21,877 nucleotides of DNA. It comes from a virus. Its lineage: Duplodnaviria; Heunggongvirae; Uroviricota; Caudoviricetes. The notes beneath the pieces are model-generated. The model was given only the letters and a program-made list of their open reading frames with translations. It did not search any database and had not been told where the DNA came from. The stretch is from the IMG/VR virus record IMGVR_UViG_2695420643_000029; one strand, given 5' to 3'. The translations under genes were made by a program, and so were the position numbers. Below, piece by piece: positions 1 to 7,234 of the stretch; position 1 is the first letter of the stretch; each line of letters begins with the position of its first letter.

Positions 1-1236
1 CTACGATAGCCGCGCATTCAACATGGCTACCTGTTCGTCGTTCATATCATCAATCCACATACCGTAAATTTCATACACCATCTGCGCAGTTTCATGCCCC
101 ATCTGGCTGGCTATAAATGCCGGGTTCGCTCCTGCCGTCAACAGCCAGCAGGCAAAAGTATGCCGCGTATGGTACGGATTACGGCGGCGAATACCAGCAC
201 GTTTTACTGCTGCATTCCACCTTGCCCCCAAACTGCTTACCGAGTAATAAGGTTTCTGTTTTCCGTTACACACCCTGGGCATGAAAACAAAATGCAGTTT
301 TTGCTTTTCGGTTCTGCCGTACTCCCGATGATAAAAGGTGATTTCGCTTTTGCGATGATGCCCGGTCAGTTTGTATTGCACCTTCAGTGCTTCAAGAGCA
401 GGCTGCAGTAATGTTACTGTCCGGATCCCGGCATTTGTTTTTGGGGGACCGAACATATCCAGTATCGTCAGGTTTCTTCTGACATTCACAGTTCCCTTCT
501 CGAAATCCACATCCTCCCACGCCAGAGCTGCCAGTTCCCCGTGACGAAGCCCGGAGTAAACGGCAAATTTCCACAAGTTTTGGCTCTGTCCTTTTTCACT
601 TTCCATTAATGCATTGAATTCTGTTTTAGATAACGGGTCAGGCTTTATTCTGTTTCGCTGTAATTTTTTTACTCCTTCAAATGGTTTGGTTGATATAAAT
701 CCCGACTGATACGCAAAACGTAACAGCGAACAGAGCAGGGCGATATAGTTATCAACTGTGCGCACGGTTCTTCCTTTTTTGTTGGATCTTGGATTATCCA
801 GGTAAAGCGTTTCTCCATGCAGCAGTTCATTCCGGTAGTTTAAGATATCGCTATAACGAATATATGATATCGGGGTACTTTCACAAATTATTATTCTGAG
901 TGTTTTTAATTGTGATTTCGTTTTCTTCATTGTGTTTGTTGTTAACTCTGTCTCTTTAATTTTTGTCCAGATATCACAAAGCTCCCCGAACGTTTTTATG
1001 ACTCTCGTTGTCACCATTTTTGCCCCAGTGCTGGACTGGGGAAAACGTCTTAAATACTCAAATTCACCGGAGTTTATTTCATGAACTATCAGCGCTCTTA
1101 AATTTCCGGCCTTTTTAATATTACTGTTTGTAATCTCCCAGCCTTTTAATGTTTCCCGACATCGTTTTCCTCGAAACATGAACCAGATGCGAATGTTTCT
1201 ACCTCTAATCTCGACACCTGTTGGTAATTTAGACAT
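1..1236 (-). CDS. int: Phage tyrosine integrase (lambda-Int-like)
   Basis: 411-aa ORF; C-terminal tyrosine-recombinase motifs (HTRHTFACWLL...Y near C-terminus); ATG at 1234-1236; stop lies at window edge; xis stop directly abuts start. Confidence 0.93.
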   Translation of the reverse strand: MSKLPTGVEIRGRNIRIWFMFRGKRCRETLKGWEITNSNIKKAGNLRALIVHEINSGEFEYLRRFPQSSTGAKMVTTRVIKTFGELCDIWTKIKETELTTNTMKKTKSQLKTLRIIICESTPISYIRYSDILNYRNELLHGETLYLDNPRSNKKGRTVRTVDNYIALLCSLLRFAYQSGFISTKPFEGVKKLQRNRIKPDPLSKTEFNALMESEKGQSQNLWKFAVYSGLRHGELAALAWEDVDFEKGTVNVRRNLTILDMFGPPKTNAGIRTVTLLQPALEALKVQYKLTGHHRKSEITFYHREYGRTEKQKLHFVFMPRVCNGKQKPYYSVSSLGARWNAAVKRAGIRRRNPYHTRHTFACWLLTAGANPAFIASQMGHETAQMVYEIYGMWIDDMNDEQVAMLNARLS

Positions 1237-1237
1237 A

Positions 1238-1453
1238 TCATGAGTCTTTGATAAACTGATTTATCTTTGGATAGTTGTACCAGATAATCCCTCGTTTGCT
1301 GTCTGGCTTACCTAAAGGAGATACTCGTTTGAAGTGGAAGCCCTCCACCCAACAGTTCTGGCGGTATGCTTCAATTTGTCTGCCCCCCAGACCAGTGCGA
1401 AGCATCAGGCCGTATTCAACCATCCACTCTTCATTAAAGATTACTTGTGCCAT
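1238..1453 (-). CDS. xis: Excisionase (Rac XisR/YdaQ-like)
   Basis: 71 aa from [23 protein letters not shown]...; position directly upstream of int; longest ORF extends to 1477. Confidence 0.8.
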
Positions 1454-1552
1454 CGCATCACCTCTGGCAGGCGCCAATGTTAGACTGAAATTGACGCCTG
1501 ATGTTGATTATTAATAATCAGCTATGAAGTTTTAATTTGTATATAATGCAAC

Positions 1553-1741
1553 TCACGAGGACAGAAGTTTCTCGCAATTAAAATTTATCAGCTTTACTTT
1601 CTGCTCTCTGGACACGCCTGCTTCTTTTTTCCCTGAGAGCATTTTTTCGCATTCTGATTTCGTTAATTTAGATTTTGAATATCTTGTCCAGTTAGTAGGA
1701 GTGCCACCTTCTTTTTCAATAGTGGCAGTTATTTTATACAT
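1553..1741 (-). CDS. Small hypothetical protein, YdaC-like by position
   Basis: ORF MYKITATIEKEGGTPTNW...; ATG at 1739-1741 preceded by GGAGGTG; lies between xis and ralR as ydaC does in Rac; family assignment uncertain. Confidence 0.55.
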   Translation of the reverse strand: MYKITATIEKEGGTPTNWTRYSKSKLTKSECEKMLSGKKEAGVSREQKVKLINFNCEKLLSS

Positions 1742-1928
1742 GAACACCTCCATTATTATTTCCAGTAGTTCGTTTATTCCATCTTTCGAGTGCTTCTTTT
1801 TCACTTCCACCATAGCCAGTTCGGGATTCGCATCCGTTGCATTTTGCCCGGTAATATCCTGAAATTGCTTTCACCGTAACAGATGGACAACCACAAAACG
1901 GACATGGTTTAACATCGTCATATCTCAT
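1734..1928 (-). CDS. ralR: Lar/RalR restriction-alleviation protein
   Basis: 64 aa MRYDDVKPCPFCGCPSVTVKAISGYYRAKCNGCESRTGYGGSEKEALERWNKR...; Cys4 pattern; alternative start at 1940. Confidence 0.85.
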   Translation of the reverse strand: MRYDDVKPCPFCGCPSVTVKAISGYYRAKCNGCESRTGYGGSEKEALERWNKRTTGNNNGGVHV

Positions 1929-1984
1929 AATTTTTGTCATAAAAACTGTCTCGCGTTGGCGGTGCATTACACCGCCAGGCTGAA

Positions 1985-2794
1985 TTATTCTTCTGAATTA
2001 TCGATCACACTGTATTCCCCGGTTAATACAGAGGAGTCTGCCGGATCGATTGTCAGTGGTTCCTTTTCATCCATTGATACTGCACGCTGGATTTCAATTG
2101 AGACAGGCAGGTATTTAAACAGGCGACGAATAGCCGTTTTTTTTGCCATTTCTTCCCAGTGAGTTACCCATGGCCCGTTATTACCAGCCTTACTCTGGCT
2201 GCGCACCAGTTCAATCTGTTTGCGCGTCATAACTTCAAACTGAGTCCCTCCGTCTTTCAGTCTTGCGACAGCATAGACGTGGGTAACCGGGGCATCTTCG
2301 TTTTCTCCCGGGCGGTGTATTAACTTTTCATCAAGGCCAAATTCGAAGCTAAACTCGTCACCTTCACGGACAACACGGGCTGACAGGCTGGCGATTTGAC
2401 CAGAACGGCGAGCCAGATCAATCATGCCGCGATAGCCAATGATTAGCTGAACGTTTTTTTTACCGCTCTTTTCGTTTTTATTACCAAAAGGCAGTAAATA
2501 TGCATGACCGAGAGCGCTACCGGGCTCAAGCCCGAGCTGTGAACACTGTACGATTGCACTGACAAAACTCATAGTGTCACAGTTTCCTAACGCCGGAACT
2601 TTACGAATTTCTGTGGTGGCGATACGGATCATACGTTCAGCCGTCATATGGCGTGGAAGAGCTGCTGCCAGTTGCTCTTTCATTGATGGCTGGTTAATAA
2701 AACTAATCACGTCGTTATTTTTAATTGCTGCTGGTGCACGGTTTCCCTGAGTTTTTTGCAGATCGGCTTTTGCGATTGGTGGTTGCTTAGTCAT
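1985..2794 (-). CDS. recT: RecT single-strand annealing recombinase
   Basis: 269 aa starting [35 protein letters not shown]...; start overlaps recE stop (2787-2789). Confidence 0.95.
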
Positions 2795-5456
2795 TTGCAT
2801 ATTCCTTAGCCCAGCGGGGCAGTGATAACGTTTTAATAGCTGGCCATTCATTGGTATTGAGGCAGTCAGCCAGGGTTCGCAGATTGCGGTGATATTCCAG
2901 CTGACCTGCCAGTTTTGCTTCTTCGCCCATCATGAAAATTTCAACCGGATAACGTCCGCATTCAATAGTTGTGCTGGCAACCAGAAAAACGAAAGTTGGC
3001 TGCACTCCAAACTGTGCTTCATAACCGTCACTGTAGAATGCATCCTGAACGTGATAGCGGTAGTCGTAATAAGCGGTTTTGAATCGTTGAATATCCGCCG
3101 TAGTTTTCACGTCCATGATCCAGTGAAATTCAGGGATAATTTTGTCCGGACGGCACCGACACAAAATTCCTGTTTCAGGATCTTCCCAGTAAATTGATGA
3201 TTCAGCGTGTCCGGCGCTTTCAACAAGCCATTGCCCCAGCGGCAAAGCCATAACGCTTTGATACATGAGTTCAATTTTCAGACCTTCTTCCGCAGTGATA
3301 ACCGTTTTTCCTGTGCTTGCGCATTCCATCAGAAACGCTTTCTCTTCTTCTTTTCCGGCGTTTGTACGGCGGTTAAATTCAGGTGCTACGATAAAGCGGT
3401 TACTGAATTCTTCCGGTTCAAGTACCCGGCAGTGGAAAGCGGTTCCTAAATCGAGCGTTTTTGTCTTTGTGTTGTCCACGGGGGCATTTTTACGCCACAA
3501 ATACAGTGCCGGAGTATCAGCAATGTCATCGAGCTGAGACTTACTGACACCGGGACCTACGTGGTAATTCTCATTCGAAATTCCGTAATAAATACCTGGC
3601 TCTATGTCTTCTACGATTACGGGATCTGCGACTTCGCCAGTTTCATCACTGCAATCGCGATGCGGATCGCTGCCAGCATTCTCATTGTGCGGATGTTCAG
3701 CGCCTTCCATTTCCTCCGGATCATTTTCCTTAGCTTCAACCTGATTCTCTTCATCGAATGTTTCCTGGTATGTTGCGTCGCCCATCACCGCGCCACAATC
3801 AGGGCAGTTGCCGCCACTCCTCTGGCCGCAGGCGGTGCAGATCTTTTCCGGTTCCTGTTGCACTACTGGTTCAGGTTGTTTCGTTTCTGGCTCGTTTTGT
3901 TGCGTATTTGGGCTGTTCTGTTCCGCTTTCTGGTCGTTCTGTTCCGTTTCTGGCTGATTCTGGTACACAGAATCGCGGGTCTGGATCCCCTTAATCCATT
4001 TCGGATCATTCGGGTCGCTAATCCCTTCAACAAATTCTCCGCGAGAGGCAGCCAGCAATTTGTCGGCATCGACAGGATTTTTGGGCGGAATGGTTTTCCG
4101 GGCTTCATGGAGTTCTGCCCGCAGTTTCTGATATTTCGCATCAACAGAATTTACCTGTGACTGAGCATCCAGCGGCTGCGTGTCCTGATGATGTTCAGTT
4201 GCATCCGGTTCCACTGTTTCAGCCGTTGCCTGTTTATCTGCCATTGCGCAAGATGGTTGCGGTTTTTCTTCACCATCGTGTTTTCCTTCTTCTGTTACAC
4301 GCTGCGGCATCGGGGCAGAGGAACGACCGCAGGCAATATCCACGATTTCCGGATCAGGGTTGGCATGATCGGTTTCAATCAGCACCTTGTTCAGATATTC
4401 AGTGACATGCGCAGGGATAACCTCGATCCCAATTGGTGCTTCTTTTACGGACGCAACCACGATGGCGCGGGAATAATCCAGCCCGCCAGGCATGGTGATG
4501 AATTTGTCGCGGAAAACAGAAAAGGGCGGTTTATTTTCAGCGATAATTTCCTCGACACGTTTAGCGTGTGCCGGATGAAGGTTATAAATATCCACATCCA
4601 TTGAACGGGCCAGAACGCCGGTGGCTACATCTCGTGCGAGTGATGTCTTATCATGTTTGAATCCTTCACCACGATCGGTAATATTTCCGCCGCCAGCGTT
4701 AGCGCCGGATGGCGTGCGGCTGATGCGTGAAACACGATTTCCTTTCATCCACTCTTTTGTAAGCAGACCGCGATCGGTGTAGTCAGCGCCCAGGTATGCT
4801 TCGATAAAAGAGGTCATCAGTCCCAGGTCCGAATTTACGGGGGCGGGGAAAACTTTGTCAGTGTCTCGCACCAGTTTGTACAAATCCCGAATCTCCAGCG
4901 GTTCGAGTTGCACTGCTTTATTTGAGATGGCCAGCGCGGTAACGGCGGGAAGTTTTTCATCCTGTGCGTTATGTAATGCGCGCAGTTTGTCCAGTGAAAC
5001 GTGCGTGAGCGGTTTTTCGCTGTTGTGTTGCGCCAGCCAGCGAACAGGCAGAATCTGACCTGAAACCGGAAGAAGCATATTCTCCTCAATCTTAGCCATG
5101 TCTTCGCCGTTGACGTTGGTATTGTCAGTACTGGCTGGTTTGTCCGGAACAGAGGGCGCGATAAGTATCATTGTGATACCATCTTCTCCGCCTTTTTCGT
5201 ATCGGTTGCAGAATTCAGTATCAAACACACCTTCCGGTGGAAGGTCATTCACAACGGGTAAATGGACGCGGATGGGTTTTTTAAAATCCTCTTCGTCAAA
5301 TCCGGCATCGTCCATTGCAGCAATGCAGCGTGAAACCGCAACAGAAAGTTTTTTTGCCTCTGTCCAGAAAAAGCCGCCTTTGATGCCGAGGCGTTTTCTG
5401 GTTTTATCATTTTTCGCGTCGCAATACAGAGCGTAATTTTCTTTATCAGTACTCAT
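2787..5456 (-). CDS. recE: RecE exodeoxyribonuclease VIII-like
   Basis: 889-aa ORF; C-terminal PD-(D/E)xK-type nuclease region (IMDVKTT); central Q/E/P-rich low-complexity linker; CxxC-N12-CxxC motif; operon partner of recT. Confidence 0.9.
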
Positions 5457-5974: not shown

Positions 5975-6823
5975 CTATTTAATACTCAGCAACTGCTCGA
6001 CGGTCATATTTTTAATTGCGCTTCGGTTTACAAGAGTCCAGCCCTGTTTCTCCAGATAAAGGCGGAAAGTGTCCAGGGTACAGACGAGAGCGCCATCAGG
6101 AACGGTTTCAGTGAATTCGACGTTGCCGAATTTGTCGAAGCGAACAACCAGAGTGCGCCCATCGCCCGGAATGATTTTGTTTGTGGGAGTGGTATTATTC
6201 TGGCGTAGCTCTGCTTCCATGCGGTCGAACTCAGCGATGTAGGCCTCTTTGAATGCAGCGGCTTTTTTGCCAGTGAAACCCATCACCAGGAAAACGAAGC
6301 CGTTTTTGGTGATTTGGTACATTGGGAGTTTGCGCCCGGTTGAGTCGGTGTATTCACTTGGCTTAAAATTAAGCTCAGTGAATTCTGAGGAACATTCCAG
6401 AGCTTCAATTTTTTGAATGACGTTTTTATGCAGCTTGCGGAAAAACTCTGCAACTGCAACAGACGTAGTGACAGCACGACCATTTTCGATGGTTACGTCA
6501 GGGTGAGAAAGGGTAGGGATAGTAGCCATGATGGCAGCCTCTAGTGATAAGTTGGTAAACTCACCACCGGAGGTGCAAATCTCATGGGTGGTGAGACGTA
6601 CAGGGTTTGCACTACCGGTCACTAGAGAATCCGGCCCGCCCGAAAACGGCCCCATACGCCCCACCATAATCTGAATGTGGCTGCGCTTTACGCATAAAAA
6701 AACCGCTTTGGCGCGGTTATGCGCTCTAGTGATCATCGGGGTGCAAATCCCGGCACCCGTTTTATGAGGTGCAGGTGCACTATAATTCCACCCGTTCTGG
6801 TTTTCAATAGCTACATCCAACAT
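5975..6823 (-). CDS. Rha-family phage regulatory protein (Phage_pRha-like domain), with possible ~98-aa N-terminal extension
   Basis: Rha-like core (...GRAVTTSVAVAEFFRKLHKNVIQKIEAL...PMYQITKNGFVFLVMGFTGKKAAAFKEAYIAEFDRME); AGGTGAG SD before ATG 6823; alternative internal start at 6529 (MATIPTLSHPD) with AGAGG SD. Confidence 0.7.
   Translation of the reverse strand: MLDVAIENQNGWNYSAPAPHKTGAGICTPMITRAHNRAKAVFLCVKRSHIQIMVGRMGPFSGGPDSLVTGSANPVRLTTHEICTSGGEFTNLSLEAAIMATIPTLSHPDVTIENGRAVTTSVAVAEFFRKLHKNVIQKIEALECSSEFTELNFKPSEYTDSTGRKLPMYQITKNGFVFLVMGFTGKKAAAFKEAYIAEFDRMEAELRQNNTTPTNKIIPGDGRTLVVRFDKFGNVEFTETVPDGALVCTLDTFRLYLEKQGWTLVNRSAIKNMTVEQLLSIK
6694..6718 (-). terminator. Terminator-like hairpin (AACCGC-N6-GCGGTT + U7) inside the 5' part of the Rha-like ORF
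   Basis: Minus-sense stem-loop followed by TTTTTTT; its intragenic position is unusual. Confidence 0.35.
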
Positions 6824-7234
6824 TTTCTCTCACCTTTCATCACTGAAGTGAACTTTGTTGATGCGGTGCCTGGTGCCTCCAGGTGACGTTAACCAGTTAA
6901 CAATTAACGCCGGATAATCCACCCATAACACTGATGCTTTTAACTGTGCCGCGTGCGCTCAGCCGCATTCACCGCATCACAAAATTCACTTTAAAAAGGG
7001 GCGGCAGGGCAGCCACGGAGTAGAACTGATGCCGCCAAGACTACACACAGCAATGTCGTTATTTACAACCGGAGGCGCACTCCCACCATTTAAATTTAAC
7101 AGACAAGACCGACTCTTTATGGATATCGGAAATGCGCCTTCGTGTTGTGCCCGGTTTTATTTCACCACCTCCGGGCTTTGGTGGCCTCGGCTATACCCCT
7201 ACAGCAAGAATATTGAATTAATCCAATAAATGGT

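What the first reader, a model, noticed from the sequence alone, without database searches (positions are those of the whole stretch)
1734..1928. Anti-restriction gene lar/ralR at the head of the recET operon
Established: Lar/RalR relieves type I restriction. The gene is intact here, so this prophage carries both anti-defence (ralR) and candidate defence cargo (12.1-14.4 kb), an arrangement worth testing functionally.
Basis: established knowledge. Interest (0 to 1): 0.28.

Follow-up and report, generated by a model that had tools for sequence, protein, structure and literature searches.

The report
Known ralR/RalA toxin–antitoxin gene of Rac
The gene is really there and intact, but it is the well-known ralR (lar) gene of the Rac prophage, it lies at the tail rather than the head of the recET operon, and it comes with its published small-RNA antitoxin RalA, so it is an ordinary, already annotated feature whose anti-restriction role is disputed rather than settled.

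Summary
Window 1734..1928 (minus strand) holds an intact 64-codon ralR/lar gene. It differs from E. coli K-12 RalR at one residue (D5 vs N5) and is 100% identical at DNA level to Rac-type prophages of STEC genomes, where RefSeq names it [quoted passage not shown]. It scores above the curated cut-offs of Pfam Lar_restr_allev, NCBIfam RalR and TIGR03655 anti_R_Lar.

- **Position.** Transcription runs recE > recT > ralR > rcbA > xisR > intR, so ralR is downstream of recT, at the tail of recET.
- **Missed partners.** The convergent antitoxin sRNA RalA is at 1557..1735 (+), Rfam 219 bits against a gathering score of 170. The overlapping rcbA/ydaC gene (DUF1187) is at 1553..1741 (-).
- **Function.** "Relieves type I restriction" rests on 1995 genetics. 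A 2014 study recast RalR as a non-specific DNase toxin, but used an hsdR-mutant host and ran no restriction assay. The physiological role is therefore unresolved.

The "candidate defence cargo" is a Rosmer system (RmrT/RmrA) followed by hok/sok.

Minor new observations: the RalA pairing box is weakened here (A75C), the ralR:RalA pairing is absent from Salmonella and Citrobacter cassettes, and rcbA evolves like a real protein-coding gene.

Verdict: already known, low interest.

The parts
1734..1928 (-). ralR (lar) CDS, 64 aa: 4-Cys zinc ribbon plus a C-terminal helix carrying a WNxR motif
   Evidence: ORF. Pfam Lar_restr_allev. NCBIfam RalR equivalog 165.9 bits against 113. 63/64 identical to K-12 RalR. 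AF2 model at pLDDT 76.
1557..1735 (+). RalA small RNA, the antitoxin of ralR; convergent with ralR and antisense to rcbA
   Evidence: Rfam RF02694, 219.2 bits against gathering score 170, model 1-179/179. K-12 annotates ncRNA ralA at the homologous position. Eight differences from K-12.
1619..1634 (+). RalA 16-nt pairing box (RalA nt 63-78), TGCTTCTTTTTTCCCT; carries A75C relative to K-12
   Evidence: Box defined in PMC4041452. Sequence and duplex energy -13.3 kcal/mol against -17.5 in K-12.
1791..1806 (-). Target box in ralR mRNA (nt 123-138, codons S42-A46), AAGTGAAAAAGAAGCA; identical to K-12
   Evidence: PMC4041452.
1708..1718 (+). Second 11-nt perfect complement to ralR nt 126-136, in the loop of the RalA terminator hairpin; created by C156T and interrupted in K-12
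   Evidence: duplex -12.5 against -9.1 kcal/mol. Function is not shown.
1542..1547 (+). Candidate -10 hexamer TATAAT of the RalA promoter, 9 nt before the RalA 5' end; K-12 has TACAAT
   Evidence: Sequence. The 5' end is taken from the Rfam match and from primer extension in PMC4041452. Promoter activity is inferred.
1553..1741 (-). rcbA/ydaC CDS (DUF1187), 62 aa; its ATG overlaps the ralR stop by 8 nt
   Evidence: Pfam DUF1187 E 1.5e-37. NCBIfam NF007283 136.7 bits. PGAP CDS. dN/dS 0-0.16 with third-position bias p<=0.012.
1747..1751 (-). GGAGG Shine-Dalgarno for rcbA, inside the 3' end of ralR, 5 nt before the rcbA ATG
   Evidence: Sequence.
1957..1977 (-). Stem-loop TGGCGGTG-TAATG-CACCGCCA in the recT-ralR spacer; conserved in K-12 and Salmonella; not a canonical intrinsic terminator
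   Evidence: Not called by the terminator scan.
1985..2794 (-). recT, immediately upstream of ralR in the direction of transcription
   Evidence: Pfam RecT E 1.5e-56. PGAP coordinates.
2787..5456 (-). recE (exonuclease VIII), 889 aa, upstream of recT
   Evidence: Pfam Exonuc_VIII plus DUF3799. PGAP.
1238..1453 (-). xisR excisionase, downstream of rcbA
   Evidence: PGAP annotation of the identical genome.
1..1236 (-). intR integrase, at the end of the prophage next to ttcA
   Evidence: ORF. PGAP.

Best explanation
This is the ralR (lar) gene of a Rac-type lambdoid prophage inserted beside ttcA in a Shiga-toxin-type E. coli. It encodes a 64-residue zinc-ribbon protein, the founding member of the Lar family. 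It is the promoter-distal gene of the leftward early operon (kilR - ydaE - recE - recT - ralR - rcbA - xis - int), so it is made together with the RecET recombinase when the prophage is derepressed. In the lysogen, leaky ralR mRNA is held in check by the convergent Hfq-dependent small RNA RalA (1557..1735). [quoted passage not shown] Two activities of the protein are inherited by near-identity (63/64) from K-12 experiments: alleviation of EcoKI restriction with enhanced modification when expressed, and DNA cleavage with SOS and toxicity when over-expressed. My reading is that both are faces of one DNA-directed activity of a small zinc ribbon, and that which face appears depends on dose. Identity, arrangement and the presence of RalA are shown here. 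The activities are taken from the literature on the K-12 orthologue. The link between the two activities is inference.
For: - **Identity.** (family models above curated cut-offs; one amino-acid difference from K-12; 100% identical DNA in annotated STEC genomes, named RalR toxin).
- **Purifying selection.** dN/dS 0.02-0.05.
- **Operon order.**. The same recE-recT-Lar-DUF1187-xis-int order occurs in Salmonella and more distant cassettes.
- **RalA.** Rfam 219 bits, full length. The 11-nt contiguous core of the published 16-nt pairing is intact. Compensatory-mutation evidence exists for K-12 in PMC4041452.
- **Fold.** Invariant C9, P10, C12, C30, C33, W50, N51 and R53 across 70 diverse family members. 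The AF2 model shows a beta-hairpin zinc ribbon plus a helix.
- **Dose-dependent toxicity and DNase activity.** PMC4041452.
- **Route from DNA damage to restriction alleviation.** DNA damage is known to trigger ClpXP-dependent alleviation of EcoKI (PMC11109961).
Against: - No activity was tested here, and the 1995 restriction-alleviation paper could not be read in the library.
- K52, whose K52Q change abolished DNase activity in PMC4041452, is naturally Q, E, T or M in relatives.
- The RalA copy here is weaker on paper than in K-12: A75C removes a pair (-13.3 against -17.5 kcal/mol), and the 5' hairpin has two mismatches.
- The ralR:RalA complementarity is absent from the Salmonella and Citrobacter-type cassettes, so RNA control is lineage-specific.
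Confidence: 0.85

Rival explanations
1. One reading: ralR is simply an anti-restriction gene. Like lambda Ral, it acts directly on the EcoKI complex to favour methylation over cleavage. Its toxicity and DNase activity are over-expression or purification artefacts.
For: - Family names and curated models call it Lar restriction alleviation.
- The family is very large in phages and metagenomes: 994 cluster representatives at E<=1e-3.
- The domain occurs as tandem arrays of 3-5 copies and once fused to a C-5 DNA methylase fragment. That fits a binding module better than a nuclease.
- No nuclease fold or catalytic motif was found.
- The paper that denies anti-restriction used an hsdR514 host and lists no restriction assay.
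Against: - PMC4041452 reports DNA cleavage by purified protein with a K52Q negative control, SOS filamentation, and a 10^3-fold CFU drop.
- A dedicated sRNA with compensatory-mutation support represses it.
- Lar is unrelated in sequence to lambda Ral (24% identity quoted; no Ral-family Pfam hit), so 'same mechanism as Ral' is an analogy only.
- The 'head of the operon' claim is wrong.
Confidence: 0.3
2. [quoted passage not shown]
For: PMC4041452. RalA is present at full length here. RefSeq and K-12 annotation use this name.
Against: - Restriction was never assayed in that study.
- The gene sits in a conserved recE-recT-Lar cassette of the early operon, not as a free-standing TA module.
- The RNA pairing is not conserved where the protein is: Salmonella -5.6 kcal/mol, and the longest Watson-Crick run of 7 nt is no better than shuffles.
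- The RalA structure breaks down in distant cassettes.
- The protein shows no nuclease fold.
Confidence: 0.2
3. Indirect alleviation: RalR nicks or breaks DNA. Together with RecET-driven recombination this creates unmodified EcoKI sites or damage signals, which trigger the host's own ClpXP-dependent degradation of HsdR. The 'anti-restriction' is then a by-product of the DNase activity.
For: DNA damage and recombination launch ClpXP-mediated restriction alleviation of EcoKI (PMC11109961; PMC4231737 abstract). RalR over-production induces SOS filamentation. ralR is co-transcribed with recET by gene order.
Against: This is purely inferential. From memory of the 1995 work, Lar also enhances modification, as Ral does, which suggests an effect on the methyltransferase rather than only loss of HsdR. 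The DNase activity itself lacks support from fold or motif.
Confidence: 0.2
4. The conserved functional pair is RalR plus the RcbA/YdaC protein (DUF1187), translationally coupled. RalA is a recent E. coli-specific overlay on the antisense strand of a real protein-coding gene.
For: - The Lar-DUF1187 gene pair is kept in every Rac-type cassette examined, including those about 65% identical.
- rcbA shows dN/dS 0-0.16 and third-codon-position bias with p 0.012-0.0003.
- Seven of the eight differences between the window and K-12 RalA are synonymous in rcbA.
- A GGAGG lies 5 nt before the rcbA ATG, inside ralR.
- Pfam, NCBIfam and PHROG all have models for the protein.
- K-12 annotates rcbA as 'double-strand break reduction protein'.
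Against: - PMC4041452 could not detect a tagged YdaC protein.
- It found that start-codon and early-stop mutants of ydaC still neutralised RalR, so the protein is not needed for antitoxin activity under over-expression.
- In a Lar homologue outside the recET context the downstream gene is unrelated to DUF1187.
Confidence: 0.2

Closest known systems
RalR/RalA type I toxin-antitoxin pair (lar, b1348, and ralA, b4714) of the cryptic prophage Rac of E. coli K-12
   Same: Same locus and gene order (intR-xisR-rcbA/ralA-ralR-recT-recE next to ttcA). RalR is 63/64 identical. RalA is 171/179 identical and scores above the Rfam gathering score. The ralR target box is identical and the 11-nt pairing core is intact.
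   Different: - RalR has D5 instead of N5.
- RalA A75C removes one pair of the 16-nt box (-13.3 against -17.5 kcal/mol).
- There are two mismatches in the RalA 5' hairpin.
- C156T creates a second 11-nt complement in the terminator loop.
- The -10 hexamer is TATAAT instead of TACAAT.
- RcbA ends 7 residues earlier.
- This haplotype is in 182 of 1915 E. coli genomes that carry the region; most carry the K-12 haplotype.
- The rest of the prophage differs: no racC, sieB or racR, with a Rha-family gene and C4/isrK/DicF RNAs instead.
Lar family of restriction alleviation proteins (Pfam PF14354, TIGR03655, PHROG 599)
   Same: Scores above the curated cut-offs. Has every invariant family residue: CPFC...CxxC zinc ribbon and WNxR helix.
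   Different: Most family members are free-standing phage genes, or tandem arrays without RalA or DUF1187 neighbours. Anti-restriction has been shown only for the Rac protein.
Ral of bacteriophage lambda
   Same: Functional analogy only. It is a small early-operon protein that alleviates EcoKI restriction and turns the maintenance methyltransferase into a de novo enzyme (PMC3874165).
   Different: No detectable homology: 24% identity quoted in PMC4041452, and no Ral-family hit in Pfam. Ral is not reported to be toxic or a zinc ribbon.
Trans-encoded type I TA systems with short pairing (TisB/IstR-1, ZorO/OrzO, ShoB/OhsC)
   Same: The antitoxin sRNA is encoded next to the toxin gene but is not fully antisense to it, and it acts through a short 16-21 nt complementarity (PMC4041452 discussion).
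   Different: Those toxins are small membrane peptides. RalR is a soluble zinc-ribbon protein, and RalA pairs inside the coding region.

Membership tests
RalR equivalog (NCBIfam NF007260) | Full-length HMM score above the curated cut-off (113 bits) | tested here: met
   165.9 bits, residues 1-64 on profile 1-64/64.
Lar family (PF14354 / TIGR03655) | HMM score above the gathering or trusted cut-off | tested here: met
   Pfam 53.8 bits against 28.6. TIGR03655 55.3 bits against 39.6. PHROG 599 E 1.7e-16.
Lar family (PF14354 / TIGR03655) | Four-cysteine zinc ribbon (CPFCG ... CxxC) followed by a helix ending in WNxR | tested here: met
   C9, P10, C12, C30, C33, W50, N51 and R53 are invariant in 70 diverse members and present here. 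The AF2 model has strands 17-22 and 25-30 and helix 43-53. Zinc binding itself was not tested.
Lar family (PF14354 / TIGR03655) | Alleviates type I (EcoKI) restriction and enhances modification | not testable with these tools
   Known only from genetics on the K-12 orthologue (King & Murray 1995, cited; the paper is not held).
RalR/RalA type I toxin-antitoxin system | Adjacent, convergently transcribed RalA sRNA | tested here: met
   Rfam RF02694, 219.2 bits against 170, at 1557..1735 (+), ending 2 nt inside the ralR stop codon.
RalR/RalA type I toxin-antitoxin system | 16-nt complementarity between RalA nt 63-78 and ralR nt 123-138, with an 11-nt contiguous core | tested here: met
   The core of 11 Watson-Crick pairs plus one G-U is intact. 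One further pair is lost through A75C (12 paired positions against 14 in K-12; -13.3 against -17.5 kcal/mol). Whether this still suffices in vivo is untested.
RalR/RalA type I toxin-antitoxin system | RalA secondary structure (5' hairpin, central domain, intrinsic terminator) | tested here: inconclusive
   The full-length CM match marks two non-canonical pairs in the 5' hairpin. The terminator stem and U-tail are present. Across 8 cassettes 73% of cells pair and 7 pairs have double changes, but the distant group breaks about half the pairs.
RalR/RalA type I toxin-antitoxin system | Toxicity and DNase activity of the protein; Hfq dependence of RalA | not testable with these tools
   Taken from PMC4041452. 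No nuclease fold or catalytic motif could be found by structure or conservation.
Lambda Ral family | Sequence homology to lambda Ral | tested here: not met
   The only Pfam hit is Lar_restr_allev. 24% identity is quoted in PMC4041452. The two are functional analogues at most.
   The minus-strand order is recE 5456->2787, recT 2794->1985, ralR 1928->1734. K-12 has the same order.
Known anti-phage defence systems (PADLOC) | Match of RalR or RcbA to a defence-system model | tested here: not met
   No PADLOC hit for either protein.

The most novel reading that the evidence does not exclude
The evolutionarily conserved unit is not ralR/RalA. It is a translationally coupled two-protein module, RalR (Lar zinc ribbon) plus RcbA (DUF1187), riding at the end of recET. 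RcbA would be the protein-level moderator of RalR's DNA-damaging or anti-restriction activity. The RalA sRNA would be a recent E. coli-specific layer that arose from a chance in-frame EKEA/KKEA codon repeat shared by the two genes. The published statement that ydaC encodes no protein would then be wrong.
Probability: 0.2. Interest if true: 0.4.

Novelty: already known. Interest (0 to 1): 0.12.

Why it matters
As a discovery it matters little. The gene, its sRNA antitoxin and its neighbours are already annotated in RefSeq, and the region occurs in about a third of complete E. coli genomes (1915-1925 of 5426).

The useful outcome is a corrected record:
- ralR is the distal gene of recET, not the first.
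- It must be considered together with RalA and rcbA.
- The label "anti-restriction" rests on one 1995 genetic study, and was contradicted in print in 2014 without a restriction assay.

Anyone planning the suggested lambda/EcoKI assay has to control for RalR toxicity, for SOS- and ClpXP-mediated restriction alleviation, and for the RalA allele.

The comparative side results give a cheap, testable handle on an unresolved contradiction in the literature. They are that rcbA behaves like a protein-coding gene, and that the RNA pairing is confined to E. coli-type Rac.

Tried and rejected
- **PDB sequence search.** It gave only spurious low-score matches to the chitin-binding protein CbpD. Rejected.
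- **The search for related loci with the diverse family alignment.** It failed because no stretch was conserved enough. The single-protein scan gave only 9 loci.
- **Full-length RNA duplex folding of ralR against RalA.** It is meaningless because it ignores intramolecular structure. Only the local box energies were used.
- **King & Murray 1995.** The paper is not held, so its content is cited second-hand or from memory.
- **Literature searches for later tests of Lar anti-restriction.** They found none.
- **Is the Lar-DUF1187 pairing general?** In a 65%-identical Lar homologue in a different phage context (L017), the downstream 62-aa gene is unrelated to DUF1187. The pairing is therefore specific to recET cassettes.
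- **Upstream in-frame ATGs.** The 77-aa ORF starts at 1967 inside the spacer hairpin loop, and a 68-aa ORF starts at 1940. Automatic gene calls in metagenome data use the 77-aa form (P0001, P0002). Both were rejected as conserved starts, because distant cassettes have a stop codon there.
- **Sigma-70-like match inside the recT 3' end (2026..1997, minus strand, 9/12).** It could give ralR its own promoter. The region yields 6 such matches against 3.0 +/- 1.6 in shuffles, so it is not evidence.
- **PADLOC.** It has no model matching RalR or RcbA.

Full report
**Observation**

The stretch 1734..1928 read on the minus strand is an uninterrupted ORF, ATG to TAA, of 64 codons. The protein is MRYDDVKPCPFCGCPSVTVKAISGYYRAKCNGCESRTGYGGSEKEALERWNKRTTGNNNGGVHV. 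It is not a chance ORF:
- It matches Pfam Lar_restr_allev (E 2.3e-14, 53.8 bits against a cut-off of 28.6).
- It matches the NCBIfam equivalog [quoted passage not shown] over its full length (165.9 bits against 113), and TIGR03655 "Lar family restriction alleviation protein" (55.3 against 39.6).
- It matches PHROG 599, "Lar-like restriction alleviation protein".

A 701-base query around the gene is 100% identical to the chromosomes of many STEC strains. There PGAP annotates ralR at exactly these coordinates, flanked by a DUF1187 gene, recT and xisR. The region is present in 1925 of 5426 complete E. coli genomes.

Compared with K-12 MG1655, the protein differs at one residue (D5 for N5). The gene carries 12 nucleotide differences, 11 of them synonymous. 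dN/dS is 0.02 against K-12 and 0.02-0.05 against Salmonella. The gene is therefore intact and under strong purifying selection.

Two longer in-frame ORFs exist, of 68 and 77 aa, and some automatic gene calls use the 77-aa form. In more distant cassettes an in-frame TAA lies three codons upstream of the conserved MRY start.

**Position in the operon**

All genes at this end of the window are on the minus strand. In transcription order they are:
- recE, 5456->2787
- recT, 2794->1985
- a 56-nt spacer
- ralR, 1928->1734
- rcbA/ydaC, 1741->1553
- xisR, 1453->1238
- intR, 1236->1

K-12 has the same order. So do Salmonella and more distant Rac-type cassettes. ralR therefore lies downstream of recT, at the tail of recET. 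The title's "at the head of the recET operon" holds only in plus-strand coordinates and is wrong in the biological sense.

The recT-ralR spacer holds a conserved stem-loop, TGGCGGTG-TAATG-CACCGCCA (1957..1977). It is not followed directly by a T-run and is not called as a terminator. Its role is unknown. A weak sigma-70-like match inside the end of recT is no more than chance would give.

Rfam finds the small RNA RalA, "RalR antitoxin" (RF02694), at 1557..1735 on the plus strand. It scores 219.2 bits against a gathering score of 170 and matches the model from end to end. RalA is convergent with ralR and lies wholly antisense to rcbA. K-12 annotates it at the homologous position.

PMC4041452 shows the following for K-12:
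- Over-produced RalR is toxic and purified RalR degrades DNA.
- RalA neutralises it through a 16-nt complementarity to ralR codons 42-46, supported by compensatory mutations.
- Hfq is required.

In the window the ralR box (1791..1806) is unchanged. The RalA box (1619..1634) reads TGCTTCTTTTTTCCCT instead of ...TTACCT. The 11-nt Watson-Crick core and one G-U remain, but one A-U pair is lost, and the local duplex drops from -17.5 to -13.3 kcal/mol.

Other differences from K-12 RalA:
- Two mismatches in the 5' hairpin, flagged by the covariance model.
- C156T, which creates a second perfect 11-nt complement to ralR nt 126-136 in the terminator loop (1708..1718; -12.5 against -9.1 kcal/mol).
- A -10 hexamer that is TATAAT here and TACAAT in K-12.

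This 91-nt RalA haplotype is found unchanged in 182 of 1915 genomes. Most others carry the K-12 haplotype, and intermediates are rare.

**Comparative test of the RNA layer against the protein layer**

I compared eight cassettes: window, K-12, E. ruysiae, Salmonella, and four Citrobacter-type loci whose RalR is about 65-73% identical. The Lar gene and a DUF1187 gene are adjacent in all of them.

*rcbA/DUF1187 evolves like a protein-coding gene.*
- Seven of the eight window-to-K-12 differences inside RalA are synonymous in the rcbA frame.
- Differences concentrate at third codon positions, e.g. 7/2/18 for window against Salmonella (p 0.0006). dN/dS is 0-0.16.
- A GGAGG lies 5 nt before the rcbA ATG, inside the 3' end of ralR.

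*The RNA features decay faster.*
- The box duplex is -5.6 kcal/mol in Salmonella and -4 to -7 in the distant group.
- The longest ralR:RalA Watson-Crick run there is 7-8 nt, no better than shuffled controls.
- Even the 11-nt run of E. coli is reached by 2-5% of mononucleotide shuffles of these A/T-rich sequences.
- The Rfam score falls to 144 bits in Salmonella and about 30-40 bits in the distant group.
- About half of the RalA base pairs, including the terminator stem, are broken in the distant group. With only eight sequences this count has little power.

The two "16-nt repeats" are in-frame codon strings for similar peptides, S-E-K-E-A in RalR and G-K-K-E-A in RcbA. This offers a simple origin for the complementarity.

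None of this contradicts the K-12 experiments. It does show that RNA control is a lineage-specific layer, whereas Lar plus DUF1187 after recET is the conserved arrangement. It also sits uneasily with the published conclusion that ydaC encodes no protein.

**The protein family and fold**

An exhaustive HMMER scan finds 994 cluster representatives at E<=1e-3. Many are 55-65 residue phage-like proteins. Others carry 3-5 tandem Lar domains, and one is fused to a C-5 DNA methylase fragment.

In 70 diverse members the invariant residues are C9, P10, C12, C30, C33, W50, N51 and R53, with F11 and G13 nearly invariant. This describes a four-cysteine zinc ribbon followed by a helix ending in WNxR. AlphaFold2 gives exactly that, with strands 17-22 and 25-30 and helix 43-53, at mean pLDDT 76.

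No acidic or histidine residue is invariant. K52, whose K52Q change abolished DNase activity in PMC4041452, is naturally Q, E, T, M or R in relatives. Sequence and fold therefore support a small nucleic-acid- or protein-binding zinc ribbon. They neither explain nor exclude the reported Mg/Ca-dependent DNase activity.

**State of knowledge on function**

The anti-restriction claim goes back to King & Murray 1995 and Toothman 1981, cited in PMC4041452. I could not read the 1995 paper. From memory, it showed EcoKI restriction alleviation and modification enhancement when lar is expressed, as in sbcA strains and lambda reverse.

[quoted passage not shown] However, its host BW25113 is hsdR514, its methods list no phage-plating or restriction assay, and its discussion argues from low identity to lambda Ral. 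I found no later experimental test. Both activities therefore stand untested against each other, and "established" is too strong.

A plausible bridge is that DNA damage and recombination are known to trigger ClpXP-dependent degradation of HsdR, which is the host's own restriction alleviation (PMC11109961; PMC4231737). A DNA-damaging protein co-expressed with RecET could thus alleviate restriction indirectly. That link is inference.

**Most likely mechanism**

- *Shown by sequence:* ralR is the distal gene of the early leftward operon of a Rac-type prophage, and it has RalA and rcbA as immediate partners.
- *By near-identity to K-12 experiments:* in the lysogen the operon is repressed and leaky ralR mRNA is blocked by RalA. 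On derepression RalR is made with RecET. At low dose it alleviates type I restriction. At high dose it damages DNA and is toxic.
- *Inferred:* the two phenotypes are dose-dependent faces of one DNA-directed activity.

The rivals are scored in the report: direct Ral-like inhibition with DNase as an artefact, pure toxin, indirect ClpXP-mediated alleviation, and RcbA as the real protein partner. They are not mutually exclusive.

**The defence-cargo remark**

The ORFs at 12199..12891 and 12842..13999 match PADLOC RmrT (E 1.7e-18) and RmrA (E 6.4e-107; Pfam HTH_3 plus Peptidase_M78). That is the Rosmer defence system. Directly after it come sok RNA (14009..14184) and a Hok protein (14122..14334). 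The prophage does carry a known defence system together with ralR, but this is a co-occurrence of two known elements.

**Verdict**

The feature is already known and annotated, and interest is low. The residual value lies in the corrected anatomy and in the comparative hints that rcbA is a genuine protein partner and that RalA control is recent and variable.

Noticed in passing
window 12199..13999 (+): Two overlapping ORFs of 230 and 385 aa match PADLOC RmrT (E 1.7e-18) and RmrA (E 6.4e-107; HTH_3 plus Peptidase_M78). That is a Rosmer anti-phage defence system. RefSeq calls them only 'hypothetical protein' and 'helix-turn-helix domain-containing protein'.
   Followed up: partly
window 14009..14334 (+): A hok/sok type I toxin-antitoxin locus (Rfam sok 120 bits; Pfam HOK_GEF E 1.8e-23; hokD in RefSeq) lies directly after Rosmer. 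The prophage therefore carries two type I TA loci.
   Followed up: partly
window 5975..7049 (-): The regulatory region differs from K-12 Rac. There is no racC, sieB or racR. Instead there is a Rha-family regulator gene (5975..6823) overlapped or preceded by Rfam C4 antisense RNA (6584..6671), isrK (6696..6772) and DicF (6999..7049).
   Followed up: no
window 16401..16802: A tRNA (16401..16460, tRNA-Met in RefSeq) is followed by sRNA STnc100 (16547..16740, +) and the anti-GcvB sRNA AgvB (16741..16802, -). This is a prophage-borne sRNA cluster typical of EHEC.
   Followed up: no
window 1553..1741 (-): rcbA/ydaC (DUF1187) shows clear protein-coding constraint (dN/dS 0-0.16, third-position bias, GGAGG 5 nt before its ATG). 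A published claim says it encodes no protein. Here it ends 7 residues earlier than in K-12 (62 against 69 aa).
   Followed up: yes
L012 (Salmonella) 3001..3372; L009, L010, L015, L016: The ralR:RalA 16-nt complementarity and the RalA terminator stem are not conserved in Salmonella or Citrobacter-type recET-Lar-DUF1187 cassettes, although both proteins are.
   Followed up: yes
window 1708..1718 (+) and 1619..1634 (+): This RalA haplotype loses a pair in the canonical box (A75C). It gains a second 11-nt complement to the same ralR site in the terminator loop (C156T). The two changes are linked in 182 of 1915 genomes.
   Followed up: partly
proteins P0023, P0029, P0031-P0033, P0049 (metagenomic relatives): The Lar domain occurs as tandem arrays of 3-5 copies in single proteins, and once fused to a C-5 cytosine DNA methylase fragment.
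   Followed up: partly
window 1957..1977 (-): A conserved GC-rich stem-loop lies in the recT-ralR spacer. The upstream in-frame ATG used by some automatic gene calls (the 77-aa form) sits in its loop.
   Followed up: partly
window 2787..5456 (-): recE is 889 aa here against 866 aa in K-12. The central, low-complexity part of the protein differs.
   Followed up: no
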